DNA from: the human T2T-CHM13v2.0 reference genome, Homo sapiens
NCBI RefSeq assembly: GCF_009914755.1
Contig: NC_060932.1
Strand: one strand, 5' to 3'
Length of the DNA: 64,000 bases
The notes under the pieces: generated by a model
The model's input: only the letters and a program-made list of their open reading frames with translations
Told to the model about the DNA's origin: nothing
Databases searched by the model: none
Translations under genes and position numbers: made by a program
In this document: in pieces, positions 27,241 through 44,882 of the stretch
Numbering within the stretch: position 1 is the stretch's first letter
How the letters are laid out: each line of letters starts with the position of its first letter

Positions 27241-29718
27241 ATTCACTTAATCAATCAAACAATCAATCAATCAGAATGTCACCTTACAATGGGATATATA
27301 CATGGAGGATGGAATTACAACCCTGGAGTCTCAAATCCTGAGTTTTATTTTTGGTGTGCTCATTCATTCCATTTTCTGTGATCTTGAATTAGGACCTTAA
27401 AATTCCTGAGAGGCAAAGGAAAAAGTCTGAAGATTTTCTGCCTTTAGATTTGTGAGTTGTAGGTGTTTGATAAAACATGAGCTTTTGAGTATAGAGGGAA
27501 TGTTGGGACTGTCAGAATGTTGTCTGCCTCCAGTTGATGGAGCCAGTGTAGCCGTTATAGTCACTCCAAAAGGTCACATCAAGGTAAAGAGAAACACTTA
27601 ATGCTCAAATTATTGATGTTCCCGTTAACATGCTTTCCCCACAAAAGCCCTGTCTGGCTAGAAGCCTGGGGACAAGGCCTCTGCCGACTCGATCTAGCAC
27701 CAACCTTGCTATAACTAATCCCCTGGTATCCTGTCTGGCTACCAGGGTGGAAACGGCCTTCACTTTCCAGGCAGCTCCAGTGATTCCTCCACAACCCAAT
27801 TCTTTTAAAAGCTGAGGGCCAAGTCCCACAGAGCAAGAGCCAGGAAATACCGGCCACCTAAGCTTTTGAGAATCAAGGAGTCAAAGAACCTAACAATGTT
27901 GGCTTGTCTTGGTTTACTTGGATCTGAGCCTCCTGAGAAAGATTCCTGTAAATGGCCTGAATATATATTTTGTTTCTCACTGCAATAACATTCTAGGACA
28001 TTGCCTCTGTTCAGAGCTCTCCTAAGCAGGCAGTAATTATGGGCAGTGGAACTAATCACTGTACATATACCTTTGTAAATCTGGCTCTCATTGGTGGAAT
28101 TTGTTTAACACCCCCCAAAGTAGGGTATATGCTTTTTTGGCATTAACATTAACCCTAGTCTTTAAGGGACTCTCACAAAATATGACACTGGATAAATGAG
28201 AATGATGTGATAGAAAAGTCCAGAGTTTCCATGTACTTCTATATACTGGTCCCTGGGCATGAAATTTGAAAAAGTTTTAGGTGCTGTTTACCTTCTTGAT
28301 GGATTAAATCTGAAAAAAAAGTAGGGGGGAGCTAAAAGACATTAACACTTTCTAAATTCTTTTATTAGTAAGAAAATACTGTGTTTAGGGGCTCAGATTT
28401 GTAAAAAGGAGGAAAAAACCCTGCAAATAACTTACTGTATTTAAGGAAAGTACTTCCTTTTCAAAATAAGAATACAATCAATTGCAAAAATTGCTTTGAA
28501 AGAAGAAAGAAATATTCACAGTGGGGCAACTTTCAATTGTATCACATAGCAGCAAAATCAATTCCTTTTCTTCCTGTTTATTTTTCATAATTTTTTATAC
28601 ATTTGTTAGTCATAAAACTTATTTTGCTTAAAAAGGCTTACCTGATTCTGAATCTGCCTTCTCTGATTTTTTTAAAAATAAATAGAAAGAAATTTAGATT
28701 TTACTTGTAACCAGATAAATCAGTTCACATGAAAAACACAGGGGACTGTAACTTTCTTGAAGGCCTAAGCAGCAGAGGAAATTGTTCTAAAGGAGGAAAG
28801 AGGGATGCTGTTGAAATGAACTCAGGTTTAAATGTGCCACCTGAAAAAAGGAGAGACAATATAAGTAAAGAGCACTAAATGTTAACTATTTTAGTATGAA
28901 TTTAGCATCAGGGATAGAGGTGATGGCTTAAACAGTAAATTTTACAAAGATAGCTGAGATTGATTTAGCATGGTATTCTACATTTTCCCTCTTTCCTTAT
29001 TTTACACCAACTTCTAGAAAGATGAGTGTGGGTTCTTCAAGCACACATGTACAGTGCATATAAAACTTAGAAGCATGTCAGAGAGAAGGTAAAGCTAGTC
29101 TTAGTGTAAAATATTTACAAATTATCTGCAGAGTTGTTTGTCCACATGCACATGACTGCACCTTAAATTTTTATAGATCTACTACCAAATAATAAAACAA
29201 TGAGTCACTTGTCTGGTGACTCCGTTTCTAAGAATATCCTAAGTGTGGAAATGACATATATTCCACATCGTGCGGAAGCTTTTCATTTTTCTGTGCGCTT
29301 TGCCAGCCTGTTAGGTCTTTGGGATCGTGTAGAGGTGGTGCAGTGGTATTGGGAAGGGAAGGTGAATGAATGCACACGCAGGTCCGTACCCAGGACAGAC
29401 ATTGCTCACCAGTCATAACAACCTTTCTTCTGAGTCCAGATGCAGCTTTAGACTCTTTCTCAGCACAGCATTCTAGGCAGCCACAACCAATTGCTTTAAA
29501 AGCAGGCATTCCAGTTGAGCCTTGTTACTATCTCTGACACGTTATATGCATGCTCCCAAAGTTTTGACAAAAATCCTACTGGACAAGATGAATCTGCTGA
29601 TGAGTGGACAGAGAGAATAGTTCAGAGGAGCCACAATGACAAGGCAGCAATACCTAAAGACCGCCAAATGAAAACGTTAAGTCTTTTAACCTTGGGAGTA
29701 AGTTTTTGGATGTAAGAG

Positions 29719-33159: not shown

Positions 33160-33523
33160 AAGTCCATTCTCATGCTGCTAATAAAGACATACCCTGGACT
33201 GGGTAATTTATAAAGGAAAGAGGTTTAATTGCCTCACAGTTTTGCAGGGCTGGGGAGGCCTCAGGAAACTTAGAATCATGGCAGAAGTGGAAGCAAACAC
33301 ATTCTCTTCACATGGTGGCAGCAAGGAGAAGTGCTGAGGAAAATGGGGAATAGCCCCTTATAAAACCATCAGCTCTCATGAGAACTCACTCACTATCACG
33401 AGAACAGTATGGAGGTAACTCTCTCCGTGATTCAATTACCTCCCACTGGGTCCCACCCATGACACGTGGGGATTATGGGAACTACAAGATGAGATTTGGG
33501 TGGTGACACAGCCAAACAATATC
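33160..33523 (-). mobile_element. THE1 solo LTR
   Basis: agtccattctcatgctgctaataaagacatacc...cacagccaaacaatatca. Confidence 0.92.
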
Positions 33524-37874: not shown

Positions 37875-38925
37875 TTTTTATTTTATTTATTTATCTATTC
37901 ATTTTTTATAATTTCAACTTTTATTTTAGATTTGGGGGTACACGTACCTAATTGTTACATGGGTATATTGTGTGATGCTGAGGTTCAGGATATGAATAAT
38001 TCCGTCACCCAGGTAGTGAGTATAGTGCACAACAGTTAGATTTTCAATCCTTCCCCCTTCCTTCCTCCCACTTCTAGTAGTCCCCAGTGTCTATTGTTGC
38101 CATCTTTATGTCCATGAGTACCCAATGTTTAGCTCCCAGGCATAAATGAGAACATGTGATATTTGATTTTCTGTTTCTGTGCTAATTCACTTAGCATAAT
38201 GACTTCCAGCCACATCCATGCTGCTGCAAAGGACGTGATTTCATTCATTTTTATGGCTGTATAGTATTCAATGGTGTATATGTACCATATTTTCTTTATC
38301 CAGTTCACTATTGATTCCATGTCTTTACTATGGTGAATAGTGCTGGAATGAAGTGTGTCTTTTTGGTAGAAGAATTTATATTCCTTTGGGTGTTGATGTG
38401 GTTTGGCTGTGTCCCCACCCAAATCTCATCTTGAATTGTAGTTCCCATAATCTCCACGTGTAGTTGGAGGGACCTGGTGGGAGGTAATTGAATCATGGGA
38501 GCGGTTCCCCCATGTTATTATTGTAATAGTAAGTTCTCACGAGATCTGATGGTTTTATAAGGAGCTTCCCACTTTGCTGGGCTCTCATTCTTCTTCCTGC
38601 TGCTATGTGAAGAAGGATGTGTTTGCCTCCTCTTCCACCATAATATAAGTTTCCTGAGGCCTCCCCAGCCCTGGGGAACTATGAGCCAATTAAATCTCTT
38701 TCCTTTATAATATACGCAGTCTTGGGCAGTTCTTTATATCAGCATGAGAACGGGCTAATACAGGTGTATACCCAGTAATGGGACTGAGGGGTCAAATTGT
38801 AGCTCTGTTTTAAATTATTTGAGAAATCTTCAATCTGCTTTCTATAGTGGCTGAACTAATTTACATTCCCACCAACAGTGTATAAGCATTTCCTTTTCTC
38901 TGCAGCCTCACTAGCATCTGTTATG
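37875..38925 (-). mobile_element. Older L1PA/L1PB 3' fragment interrupted by THE1
   Basis: tttcaacttttattttagatttgggggtaca...; ORF 38129..38422 gives NWIKKIWYIYTIEYY; resumes at atacccagtaatggga. Confidence 0.9.
38394..38762 (+). mobile_element. THE1 solo LTR
   Basis: tgatgtggtttggctgtgtccccacccaaatctc...gctaataca; perfect 5-bp TSD GGTGT. Confidence 0.95.
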
Positions 38926-39082: not shown

Positions 39083-42000
39083 AATAGACTTTATTTTTTA
39101 CAGGAGCATTATGTTTCCAGAAAACTTGAGCAGAAAGCACAGAGATTTTTCCATACATTTTCTGCCCCCAAATATACACAGTCCTGCCTGCTATCAAAAT
39201 CCCCTCTAGAGTGATGCAGTTGTTACATCCCATGAACCTACATTAACACATCATGATCACCTAGAATCCACAGTTTACAACGCCTTTGGTGCTGTACATT
39301 CTATTGGTTTGGACAAACGTATAATGACATGCTTTCACCATTGTAGAATTATACATAATATTTTCGCTGCCCTAAAAATCCTCTGTGCTCTGCCTATTTA
39401 ACCCTCCCTCCCCTCAACCCTTGACAACCTCTGATCCTTTTACTATCATTTTAGTTTTGACTTTTCCACAATGTCATGTAGTTGAAATCAAATGGTATGT
39501 GGCCTTTTCAGATTGGCTTCTTTCTCTTAATAATTATGCATTTAAGTTCCCTCCATGTCTTTTAGTGGCTATTAGCTCATTTTGTTTTATCACCAAATAC
39601 TATTCTATTGTCTGGATGTAGATGGCTCCCAAGTTTTGGAAATTATGAATAAAGCTGCTGTAAACATTCATGTGCAGGTTTTTGTGTGGATATAAGTATT
39701 CAATTCATGTGGGTAAATACCAAGGCAATCAATTTGTGGATAACATATTAAGAGTATGTTTAACTTTGTCAGAAACTGCCAAACTGTCTTTCAAAGCTGC
39801 TGTATCATTTTGTATTCCCACAAATACAAAATTGTCATTTTAATTGTCATTCTGTCATTTAAAGCTATCCTGTTTGTGGCATTTTGTTATGGCAGCCCAT
39901 AACAGAAGACTTCTTTTTTCCCAGTCTTGGATGCTAGAATTTGCTCCACATCTTCACCACTATTTGGTGTTGTCAGTGTTCTAGATGTTGGCCACTCTCA
40001 TGGGGATGTAGTAATATTTCATTATTGCTTTAATTTGCATTTCCTTAATGACATACGATGTAGAACATCCTTGCATATGTTTATTGTCCATCTGTAAATA
40101 TTCTTTGGTGATGTCTCTGTTCAAGTATTGTGCCGAGTTTTTAATAAGGATTTTGTTTTCTTATTACTGAGCTTTAAGTGTTCTTTGTACATTTTAGATA
40201 ACAGTGCCTTTTTATGTAATTTGTAAATATTTTATATAATTATGTAAATATTTGTGAAATGTAAATTTTGCAAATTTTGCAAATATTTTCTCCTTTTCTG
40301 TAAATTATCTTTCCATTCTCTAGACAGTGTCTTTCACAGAGCAACAGTTTTTAACTTTAATACAGACCAGTTTATCAATTTTTTTCTTTCATGGATCATG
40401 CCCTGGTGTTGTATCTAGTAAGTCATCATCATGCCAAAGATCATCTAGGCTTTTTTTGTGTTATCTTTTAAGAGATTTATAGTTTTGTGTTGTGTTCTAA
40501 ATTTAGGGCTATGATCCATTTCGAGCTTGTGATGAGTGTAAGGTCTATGTCTAGATTCTTTCTTTCTTTCTTTCTTTTACATTTGGAAATCAGGTTGTTT
40601 CAGCGCTATTTATTGACAAGGATACCCTTTCTCCTTTTCTCCATTGTATTGCCGTTGCTCTGTTGTCTAAGAGCAGTTGACTATATTAATAGGGGTCTAT
40701 TTCTGGGCTCTTTATTCTGTTCCATAGGTTTATATATCTTTTCTTCTGCCAGTACCACACTCTCTAATTATGGTAGCTTTATGCAAGTCTTGAAGACAAA
40801 TAATGTCCGTCCTCCAACTTTGTTCTTCTCCTTCAATATTATACTGGCTATTTTCTATCTTTTGCCTCTCTATATAAACTTCAGAATCAGTTTGTTGATA
40901 TATACAAAATGACTTGCTAAAATTTTGATTGGAATTTTGTTGTATCTAGATGAAGTTGGGAAGATCTGCCATCTTGTCAACATTGAGTCTTCCTATTGAT
41001 TATATGGAATACCTCTTCATTTATTCCATTCTGCTTTGATTGCTTTAATCAGAGTTTTTAGTTTTCCATATACAGATCTTGTACATATTTTGTTAGAGTT
41101 ATACCTAAGTATTTCATTTTTGAGGGGAGCTAATGAAAATTGTGCTGTAATTTTAATTTCAAAGTTCACTAGTTCATTGCTGATTTAAGGAAAGTCACTG
41201 ACAATTGTATATTAATCTGGTATCTTGCAACATTGCTATAATTTATTATTAGTTCCGGGAGGGTTTTTTCCTAATCCCTTGGGATTTTCTGAATAGACCA
41301 TCATGTTATCTATGAACAAAGTTTTCTTTCTTTCTTCCCAATCTGTAATCTTTTATTTCCTTTTCCTTTTTATTGCATTAGCTAAGGCTTCCAGTATAAT
41401 GCTGAAAAGCAAGGGTAAGAGGGGACATCCTTGCCTTTGTTCCTGATCTTAACAGGAAAGCTACTATTTTCTCACCAGTAAGTAATGTTAGCTGATTTAT
41501 AGATATTATTAATCAAGTTGAAAAAGTTCCCTCTATTCCTGCTTTACTGAGAATTTTAGCATACATAGGTGTCAGATTTCATGAAATGCATTTTCTGCAT
41601 CTATTGATATGATTGTTTGACTTTTTTCATTAGTCTTTTAATGTAATGGGTTATATTAATTGATTTTTGAATGTTGAAACCGACCTGCCTACCTGAAATG
41701 AATCCCACTTGCTTTTAATGTGTTATTCTTCTTATAAGTTGTTGGATTTGATTTGCTGATATTTTGTTGAGTGTTTTATGAGAGATATTAGTCTTTTATT
41801 ACAATATCATTGCCTGATTTTAATATTAGGGTAATGCTGGTTTCATAGAATGAGTTAGGAAGTAGTCCTTCTGTTTCTATCTTCTGGAAGAGATTGTAGA
41901 GAACTGGTATAATCTCTCCCTCAAATATTTTGTAGAATTCATCGGTAAACCCAGCTCGGCTGGTACTTTAGTTTTAGAAGGTTATTAATTATTTATTCAA

Positions 42001-43083
42001 TTTTTAAAATTGATATAAGACTATTCAGTATGTCTGTTTATTCCTGTGTGAGTTTTGGCAGATTGTGCCTTTGAAGGAATTGGTTCATTTTCATCTAGGA
42101 TATGAAATTTTTAGGTATAGAGTTGTTCATCCTATACATTTTGCTATCCTTTTAACGTTCATGGTATCTGTGGTAATGTTCCTTTTCTTATTTTTGGTAT
42201 TAGTAATTCATTTTTCTCTTTTTTTTTACTTAATTACCCTGGCTAAAGATTTATCAATTTTATTGATCTTGTCAAATAATGAACCTTTGGTTCTATTGAT
42301 TTTCTCTATTGATTTACTCTTTTTAATTTCATTGATTTCTGTTATAATTTTTATTATTTATTTTCTTCTGCTTACTTTGGATTTCATTTGCCCTTCATTT
42401 TCTAGTTTCCTAAGATAGAAGCTTAAATTATTAATTTTAAATCTTTTTTTTATTATTTGCATTCAGTGCTATACATTTCCCTCTAAGCATTGCTTTTATT
42501 GTCTCCCACATATTTTGGTAAGTTGTGTTTTCATTTTCATTTAGTTCAAAATATTTAAAAATTTCTCTTGAAATTTCTTTGACCCATATGCTATTTAAAA
42601 GTGTTTTGTTTAATCACCAAATATTTTGGGTTTTTTTCAGTCATCTTCCTGTTACTGAATTCTAGTTTAATTTCACTGTATTTGGAGGGCAAATATTGAA
42701 TTATTTACATTGTTTTAAATTTGTTAAGGTGTGTTTTATAAACCAGAATGTGGTCTATCTTGCTAAACATTCTGTATGAGCTTGAGAAGAAGGTATATTC
42801 TGCTATTGTTGGTTGATGTAGTCCATACATGTCCATTATATACAGGTGATTGATGCTGCTGCTTAGGTCAACTCTGTGCTTACTGATTTTCTGCCTACTG
42901 GATCTGTCCATTTCTGGTTTCTTTAAAGTCTTCAACTATAATGGTGGGTTCATCTCTTTCTCCTTACAGTTCTATCAGTTTTCACCTTATATATTTTGAT
43001 GCTCTATTTTTACATGTGTACAAAATGATTATATGTCCTCTTGGAGAATCAACCCCCTTATCATTATGCAGTGCTTTTATCCC

Positions 43084-43395
43084 TGTCTGCTTGGGCTGCT
43101 ATAAAAAATATTACAAACAGGGTAGCTTAAATGACAGGCATTTATTTTTTCCCAGTCTTGGATGCTAGGATTCTATGGCCAAGGTGGTGGCAAATTTAGT
43201 TTCTGATGAGGGCTATCTTCTCGGCTTTAGGAATAGATCAGGATTAGATTACAACACGAATCCTCTCAGATCAGGATCACAATTTTATTGCCTCGTTTAA
43301 CCTTAATTACTTTATTAAAGACCCTGATCTCCAAATACAGTCACGTATAGAACTTCAATATATTATTTTTGGGGGAAAACATACATTTATGCCAT
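43084..43395 (-). mobile_element. MLT1A/B-type LTR, internally deleted or rearranged, nested in L1
   Basis: ttgggctgctataaaaaatattacaaacagggtagcttaaatgacag...aaagaccctgatctccaaatacagtcac. Confidence 0.8.
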
Positions 43396-43997
43396 TTAAT
43401 CTCTGACATCTTTTCTTGCTGTGAAGTGTGTTTGGCCTGAAATTAATATAGCTATTCTCACTTTCTTTTGATTAGTGATAACTTAATGTATCTTTTACAA
43501 CTATCGCCACCTCTTTACTTTTAATTTATATGTGTTTTTATAGTTAAAATGGATTCTTTTTATACAACATAAAGTTGCGCTGCGTTTTTTGATCTACTCT
43601 GACAATCTTTGTCTCTTAATTGGTGTGCTTAGACCACTGGTGTTTAAAGTGATAATTGATATAGTAGGTCTAATATCTACTATATTTGGTTTTTTTTGTT
43701 ATTTGCCCTTATTCTTTGTTCCTCTTTGTTTTCCATTCTTTTATACTTTTTGTGGTTTTAATTGAGCATTGTATGTGATTCCATTTTCTTTCTTCCTTAG
43801 CCCACCAGTCATGCTTTTTTTAGTGGTTGCTCTAAAGTTTGCAATATATATTTACAATTAATCCAAGTTTTCTTTCAAATAACCTTCTACTGCTTTACAG
43901 ATAGTGCAAGTACTTTATAATAACAAAATAATTCTAATTCTTTCAACTCTGTCTTTTTAATTCCTGTCATTTATTTCCCTTATACATATAAGCTTAT

Positions 43998-44404: not shown

Positions 44405-44882
44405 TACATTGCTGTTAGTTTTTGAACAAATTGTATCTACTAGATCAATTAAGGATTTAAAAAGTGTTTATTTTACATTAACAAGTGTTTATTTTACATT
44501 CACTTATTACTTCTCTGATACTCTGATACTCTTCCTTTATGTAGATCTGAGTTTCTGACATACAATTTTTTTATTAACATTTCTGCAAGGCACATTTCTG
44601 CAAGGCTACAAATTCCTTCAATGTTTGTCTAAGAAAATCTTTATTTCTCCTTTGCTTTTGAAGGATAATTCTGCCAGGTACAGAATTTTAGGTTACATTT
44701 GTTTTCCTCTCTCAAAATCTTAAATATTTCACTCCACTCTCTTTTTGGTTGTATACTTTTTGAGACATCAGATGTAGTTCTTAATTTTGCTCCTCCGTAG
44801 GTAAGGTGTTTTTTCCCTCTGACTTTTTTCAAGACTTTTTCTTTGCCTTTGATTTTCTGCAGTTTGAATATGATATGTTCAG

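What the first reader, a model, noticed from the sequence alone, without database searches (positions are those of the whole stretch)
39822..39940. Patchwork insertion in L1MC apparently templated from the LTR 3.2 kb away
Seen: the L1 sequence tattcccac...ttgctccacatc is interrupted by about 120 bp with three parts. (i) Three stuttered tgtcatt copies. (ii) 39852-39898, matching the reverse complement of 43093-43137 at about 40/47. (iii) 39914-39937, TTTTTTCCCAGTCTTGGATGCTAG, identical (24/24) in direct orientation to 43145-43168. The two donor pieces are adjacent in the MLT1 copy at 43084 but appear here in opposite orientations. The 24-mer departs from the MLT1 consensus as I recall it, pointing to this particular copy. 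Inference: a fossil of iterative template switching (polymerase-theta end joining or MMBIR) using a nearby locus.
Basis: partly seen in the sequence, partly recalled or inferred. Interest (0 to 1): 0.7.

Follow-up and report, generated by a model that had tools for sequence, protein, structure and literature searches.

The report
Ancient DNA-repair scar copied from neighbour
A 119-base patch replaces about 22 bases of an old LINE-1 repeat on human chromosome 8 and holds pieces matching its own flank and an LTR repeat 3.2 kb away; it is likely a tens-of-millions-of-years-old scar of break repair by template switching, a known and ordinary kind of mutation.

Summary
39822-39940 (119 bp) replaces about 22 bp of an old L1, with no target-site duplication and no inversion of the DNA in between. 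The inverted piece matches the same LTR at 41/48; its first 25 bases form a haplotype found only at these two places among 744 family matches, but its second half is family-typical where the LTR is not. New here: the insert starts with an exact 10-bp inverted copy of its own left flank, and a second hairpin sits where the orientation flips. Donor and insert differ at 11 of 86 columns, so the event is likely old, not a recent variant. Best reading: one repair event with foldback, abortive starts and two copying rounds from the nearby LTR. Complex templated insertions of this kind are described in human germlines (PMC8421209). The polymerase cannot be named and the age could not be checked in other primates. 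Real, well preserved, ordinary.

The parts
39086..39821 (-).
   Evidence: Paralogs align to 39086-39821, same strand and order as the rest of the element
39807..39816 (+). Local template of the foldback, in the left flank
   Evidence: Exact reverse complement of 39823-39832; includes T39813, shared by only 5 of 24 L1 paralogs
39822..39940 (.). The whole 119-bp insertion, replacing about 22 bp of L1; no target-site duplication
   Evidence: 11 of 20 paired paralogs have a 22-bp spacer
39823..39832 (-). Foldback copy of the left flank: 10-bp stem, 6-nt loop
   Evidence: a match of 10 or more this close to a point occurs at 0.09% of 21,267 window positions and at 0 of 1,244 host-L1 positions
39830..39851 (.). 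Two short stuttered units (likely abortive starts on the LTR, or slippage on the new strand)
   Evidence: 39830-39839 = 39842-39851 exactly; the core matches the reverse complement of 43130-43136
39852..39906 (-). Piece ii: inverted copy of the LTR end 43086-43137; first half carries the LTR copy's rare bases, second half is family-typical
   Evidence: 46/55 columns
39882..39907 (.). Hairpin at the orientation switch (39884-39891 pairs exactly with 39897-39904, 4-nt core loop); possible second foldback
   Evidence: -6.5 kcal/mol, z -2.5, 6 of 200 shuffles as good; the same bases also align as the LTR end, so this is ambiguous
39911..39941 (+). Piece iii: direct copy of 43142-43172, exact over 39914-39937; shares 1 base (39941) with the right flank
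39941..43083 (-). Host L1 between insertion and LTR, collinear and not inverted
   Evidence: Single paralog alignments run from 39941 to beyond 43000 on the same strand as both outer flanks; 74-77% identity
43084..43398 (-).
   Evidence: 40 scored candidates gave family matches at mostly 73-85% identity; L1 paralogs lack it; candidate 5-bp target duplication 43079-43083 / 43399-43403, 4 of 5 identical
43086..43172 (.). Donor tracts: 43086-43137 (copied inverted) and 43142-43172 (copied direct)

Best explanation
The 119-bp patch is likely the fixed scar of one germline break-repair event in which a DNA end was extended several times on different templates: its own flank first, then the LTR 3.2 kb away in both orientations. 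Shown: 22 bp of L1 are missing; the insert begins with an inverted copy of the left flank; piece iii and the first half of piece ii carry bases private to this LTR copy; the intervening DNA is not inverted. Inferred order: (1) the left end folds back and copies 10 nt of itself; (2) it reaches the LTR and makes two aborted starts, possibly helped by the 6-mer that 39805-39810 shares with the reverse complement of 43129-43134; (3) it copies about 50 nt to the LTR end; (4) it folds back or re-primes and so changes strand; (5) it copies about 30 nt in direct orientation; (6) it joins the right flank with 1 bp of overlap. I commit to microhomology-primed iterative template switching, probably started by polymerase theta and including a kilobase-range invasion as in MMBIR; the enzyme is not shown. 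Age is inferred as tens of millions of years, after the LTR inserted.
For: 24-mer unique to the two places at up to 2 mismatches against 284 backbone matches. First-half haplotype of piece ii at 2 of 744 backbone matches, the two it was built from; its informative bases occur in 3, 10 and 5 of the 100 listed (counted by eye). The local LTR outscores all 13 LTR ends not chosen by similarity: piece ii 65 vs at most 54, first half 41 vs at most 21, piece iii 54 vs at most 26. Foldback background 0.09%. No target-site duplication and a 22-bp loss. L1 collinear on both sides. Difference rates of the two pieces (9/55 vs 2/31) are not significantly different, Fisher p 0.31. Inverted and direct templated insertions and repeated aborted rounds in AT-rich DNA are described for polymerase theta (PMC7165422, passages); multi-template germline insertions that switch direction are described (PMC8421209, section read).
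Against: The second half of piece ii (39875-39899) matches 5 other genome places exactly and not the local LTR; 14 of 14 fetched best genome hits score higher over piece ii than the LTR does (68-79 vs 65), though they were picked as the best in the genome. The model needs the LTR to have gained 4 changes within 43100-43112 after the event. Against the exact 24-mer alone the contrast is borderline (9/55 vs 0/24, p 0.05). One of the five sites I first took as rare in piece ii (43116) is common in the family (about half of the 100 listed), and 43132-43133 tend to change together, so three informative events remain. The last junction has only 1 bp of overlap. The unbiased sample is only 13 copies. 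No other species could be examined.
Confidence: 0.8

Rival explanations
1. Two steps: a fragment of another LTR copy was captured first at the L1 break, and later homology between the two inverted LTR ends let the local copy overwrite or add part of the patch (first half of piece ii, piece iii).
For: Second half of piece ii is family-typical and exact at 5 other places; identity is uneven along the patch.
Against: Donor-like tracts lie on both sides of the family-typical half and in opposite orientations; the stutters copy the donor's rare dinucleotide at 43132-43133; unevenness is not significant over the full tracts (p 0.31).
Confidence: 0.1
2. Piece iii was copied from the local LTR, but piece ii is an unrelated LTR fragment or relic whose likeness to the local copy is chance.
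For: Other genome copies score higher over piece ii.
Against: No third place among 744 backbone matches carries the shared first-half haplotype; no target-site duplication and a 22-bp loss argue against a normal LTR integration; an unrelated fragment would have to come from the stretch next to piece iii's template.
Confidence: 0.04
3. The LTR pieces came through an RNA or cDNA patch, or as free DNA fragments ligated by end joining (class 2 templated sequence insertion), rather than by a DNA end invading the nearby LTR.
For: Deletion at the site, no target duplication and no poly(A) fit class 2 features (PMC5110952, passages).
Against: Described donors are distant, not nearby (PMC5110952); a local foldback, stutters and two orientations from one 90-bp stretch are simpler as repeated priming; no transcript is annotated here in the hub's table.
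Confidence: 0.05
4. Relic of an inversion or ectopic recombination between two inverted LTR copies, or an assembly artefact.
For: Two inverted LTR ends 3.2 kb apart could recombine (inference).
Against: The L1 is collinear and on one strand across both sites; 13% difference between insert and LTR is not what a mis-assembly would give.
Confidence: 0.01

Closest known systems
Complex MMBIR-type templated insertions (MMB-TI, 'complex' class) in human germlines, Osia et al. 2021, PMC8421209 (passages and part 1 of 2 of the fibroblast section read)
   Same: Several templates in one insertion, direction changing between rounds, no larger rearrangement; they report 33 and 26 complex events in two people, with up to five templates.
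   Different: Those are differences between people and the reference; this one lies in the reference and has drifted about 13% from its template. I did not see template distances in the passages read; supplements were not opened.
Polymerase-theta templated insertions (TINS; foldback, cross-junction, strand-switch), PMC7165422 and PMC11541566 (passages read)
   Same: 10-bp inverted copy of the flank within 20 bp of the break with a hairpin loop, short aborted rounds, AT-rich context, small deletion.
   Different: There, tracts are rarely over 10 bp, templates lie within about 20 bp, and distal templates were under 0.1% of repair; here two tracts of 30-55 bp come from 3.2 kb away.
Class 2 templated sequence insertion polymorphisms, Onozawa and Aplan 2016, PMC5110952 (part 1 of 4 and passages read)
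   Same: Patch at a break with microdeletion, no target duplication, no poly(A); similar size range (73-414 bp in their experiments).
   Different: Donors there are distant and thought to pass through RNA; here the donor is local and copied in both orientations; polymorphism untested.
Micro-insertions at 1000 Genomes deletion breakpoints, Abyzov et al. 2015 (not held; only a citing passage seen in PMC5392597)
   Same: The citing passage says templates lie at two frequent distances from the breakpoint; I recall the longer one as a few kilobases, which would fit 3.2 kb (recalled, not checked).
   Different: Those accompany large deletions; here only about 22 bp are lost.
Short-range template switches in human and ape genomes, Loytynoja and Goldman 2017 (PMC5453318), Walker et al. 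2021 (PMC7954356) (search listing only)
   Same: Fixed or inherited inverted copies from a nearby template found by sequence comparison.
   Different: By their titles and abstract starts these are short-range events; this one adds a kilobase-range donor and several rounds.

Membership tests
Complex templated insertion by template switching (MMB-TI, complex class) | Inserted sequence absent from the ancestral site | tested here: met
   119 bp vs a 22-bp spacer in 11 of 20 paired L1 paralogs; paralogs stand in for the true ancestor
Complex templated insertion by template switching (MMB-TI, complex class) | Two or more identifiable templates, with a change of direction | tested here: met
   Left flank inverted, LTR inverted, LTR direct
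Complex templated insertion by template switching (MMB-TI, complex class) | Microhomology at the switch points | tested here: inconclusive
   1 bp at the last junction; a shared 6-mer between left flank and LTR and a hairpin at the flip are candidates, but age has blurred the junctions
Complex templated insertion by template switching (MMB-TI, complex class) | All pieces made in one event | not testable with these tools
   Needs primate and mammal orthologues; only this genome and prokaryotes were searchable
Polymerase-theta templated insertion (TINS) | Direct or inverted copy of 5 bp or more from within about 20 bp of the break | tested here: met
   39823-39832 vs 39807-39816
Polymerase-theta templated insertion (TINS) | All templates local and tracts short (rarely over 10 bp) | tested here: not met
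   Tracts of about 55 and 31 bp from 3.2 kb away; criteria
Polymerase-theta templated insertion (TINS) | Dependence on POLQ | not testable with these tools
   A fixed historical event
Class 2 templated sequence insertion polymorphism | No target duplication or poly(A); microdeletion at the site | tested here: met
   and the sequence
Class 2 templated sequence insertion polymorphism | Donor in a distant genomic region | tested here: not met
   Donor 3.2 kb away in the same L1
Class 2 templated sequence insertion polymorphism | Polymorphic among people | not testable with these tools
   One human genome held; 13% drift predicts it is fixed
Ordinary LTR integration at 39822 | Target-site duplication, no loss of target, intact LTR ends | tested here: not met
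   22 bp lost, flanks not duplicated, only about 55 bp of one LTR end
MLT1 LTR (donor) and L1MC (host) subfamily names | Best match to the named Dfam/Repbase model | not testable with these tools

The most novel reading that the evidence does not exclude
Old repeats hold a readable, datable fossil record of kilobase-range template switching: private bases of a repeat copy identify the donor, and the patch freezes the donor as it was on the day of the break. If the second stuttered patch 270 bp away (about 40208-40276) proves the same age, this L1 would record one clustered multi-break repair episode in an ancestral primate germline, and a genome-wide survey would give the distance and strand rules of germline template switching over primate evolution.
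Probability: 0.2. Interest if true: 0.45.

Novelty: new member of a known kind. Interest (0 to 1): 0.22.

Why it matters
The site itself lies in old repeats with no annotated gene or element (hub table), so no function is expected. Its value is as a clean worked example: foldback, aborted starts and a kilobase-range strand switch in one inherited scar, with the donor pinned by private bases. It would serve as a homoplasy-free marker of a primate branch and as a seed for a systematic search for old repair scars. It does not change what is known about repair.

Tried and rejected
Subfamily sharing of the 24-mer: rejected. Inversion between the two sites: rejected. Normal LTR integration at 39822: rejected. 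A better single donor elsewhere: the genome search with the whole insert returned 20 of 20 candidates, all but the insert itself matching piece ii only, and missed the local LTR, so it is a lower bound; none of the 14 fetched had piece iii nearby (best score 30 vs 54 for the LTR). Treating 43116 as a private base: dropped. A greedy exact-match parse of the insert was too fragmented to fix junctions. A large random sample of LTR copies was not obtained, so the unbiased comparison rests on 13 copies from 253,569 bases already held. Base rate: in the window and 237,759 bases of other loci, exact matches of 20 bp or more 150-6,000 bp apart were Alu-like pairs (recognised from memory) apart from this one, one pair at 33245/38646 and one in L071; the loci are short and not random, so this is only a rough sign of rarity. 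The Abyzov 2015 paper and a review on templated insertions (PMC10962320) were not held. No search was made for this locus in print by coordinate; literature searches were by mechanism, so absence from print is not claimed.

Full report
Observation. The sequence shows all three parts at the stated coordinates. The longest exact match of 39800-39960 elsewhere in the window is the 24-mer at 39914/43145; the next is 13 bp. BLAST against the window gives 39852-39899 vs 43137-43092 at 41/48 with 2 gaps and 39911-39941 vs 43142-43172 at 29/31, both E 2.9e-8.

The site. A genome search with 39700-40050 returned L1 paralogs that match query 1-122 and 242-351 and skip the middle. Of 24 fetched paralogs, 20 had both flanks paired; their spacers were 12-37 bp, 22 bp in 11 of 20. 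So 39822-39940 (119 bp) replaces about 22 bp. The flanks are not duplicated. Long paralogs align from 39086 to 43993 on one strand and in order, skipping only this patch, a second patch near 40210 and the LTR, which excludes an inversion between the two sites. The LTR spans about 43084-43398 with a candidate 5-bp target duplication, 4 of 5 identical.

Piece iii comes from this LTR copy. The 24-mer has 2 genome matches at up to 2 mismatches. With five positions freed, the same pattern has 284 matches, so the search does see the family. Among the 100 listed, the five bases shared by insert and LTR occur 12, 2, 5, 12 and 1 times and never more than two together (counted by eye; these copies are selected for an intact backbone, so the rates are on the low side). 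In 28 paralogs chosen for likeness to the LTR the same bases occur 5, 1, 2, 3 and 1 times.

Piece ii is well but less firmly tied. A pattern built from the first half of both copies matches only those two places (it matches them by construction), while its backbone matches 744 places. In the 100 listed, the informative states occur 3, 10 and 5 times; a fourth site I had thought rare is common, and two adjacent sites change together. Against 13 LTR ends not chosen by similarity, the local LTR scores highest for every piece (65 vs at most 54; first half 41 vs at most 21). Against this: the second half, 39875-39899, is exact at 5 other places and not at the LTR, and the 14 best genome hits fetched outscore the LTR over piece ii. 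In 43100-43112 the insert mostly has the base common among paralogs and the LTR has the rarer one, so the model needs four later changes in the LTR there. Over full tracts the difference rates are compatible (9/55 vs 2/31, p 0.31), and borderline against the exact 24-mer alone (p 0.05).

39823-39832 is the exact reverse complement of 39807-39816, a 10-bp stem with a 6-nt loop starting 1 base after the junction, and it copies a base shared by only 5 of 24 paralogs. Such a match arises at 0.09% of 21,267 window positions and at none of 1,244 host-L1 positions. A second hairpin (39884-39891 with 39897-39904) sits where the orientation flips (6 of 200 shuffles fold as well); the same bases can also be read as the LTR's end, so this one is ambiguous. 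39805-39810 equals the reverse complement of 43129-43134, a 6-mer that could have helped the end find this donor (read; role inferred).

Age. Insert and LTR differ at 11 of 86 columns (12.8%, 95% interval 6.6-21.7%), while the LTR and the L1 are mostly 73-77% identical to their paralogs. The event is therefore younger than the LTR but old; by recalled primate divergences this means tens of millions of years. The perfect 24-mer is partly luck. No other primate could be examined.

Mechanism. Most likely one repair event: foldback on the left end, two aborted starts on the LTR, about 50 nt of inverted copying, a strand change, about 30 nt of direct copying, and joining to the right flank with 1 bp of overlap. 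The templates are shown; order, single-event status and enzyme are inferred. Foldbacks and repeated aborted rounds in AT-rich DNA are described for polymerase theta, but its tracts are rarely over 10 bp, its templates lie within about 20 bp and distal templates were under 0.1% of repair (PMC7165422, passages; PMC11541566, passages). Multi-template germline insertions with direction changes are common: 33 and 26 in two people (PMC8421209, section part read). Class 2 templated insertions share the junction features but have distant donors (PMC5110952). Supplements of these papers were not opened and may list template distances.

Verdict. Real, correctly read, and a new member of a known kind. 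It lies in old repeats with no annotated function. Interest 0.22.

Noticed in passing
window 40208-40276: A second patch of about 45-60 extra bases in the same L1, absent from three long paralogs, made of stuttered copies of the adjacent right-flank motif (exact repeats of 11 and 13 bp); it looks like a separate local iterative-synthesis scar 270 bp from the finding. An 18-bp inverted match to 29107-29124 is AT-rich and probably chance.
   Followed up: partly
window 33245-33272 and 38646-38673: 28-bp exact inverted match 5.4 kb apart, apparently between two copies of a younger LTR family (recognised from memory); probably family likeness.
   Followed up: no
window 43084-43398: The donor LTR matches paralogs over query 1-144 and 171-300, with about 100 bp more between these parts in several paralogs, so it has an internal deletion; its left end is also about 6 bp shorter than most aligned paralogs.
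   Followed up: partly
window 39620: About 40 bp of L1 are missing here relative to three paralogs, 200 bp left of the insertion.
   Followed up: no
L044 (G000:C20:18300535-18300743): An L1 paralog with its own unrelated extra sequence (37-bp spacer) at the same L1 position.
   Followed up: no
window 44457-44498: 21-bp tandem duplication, 95% identical.
   Followed up: no
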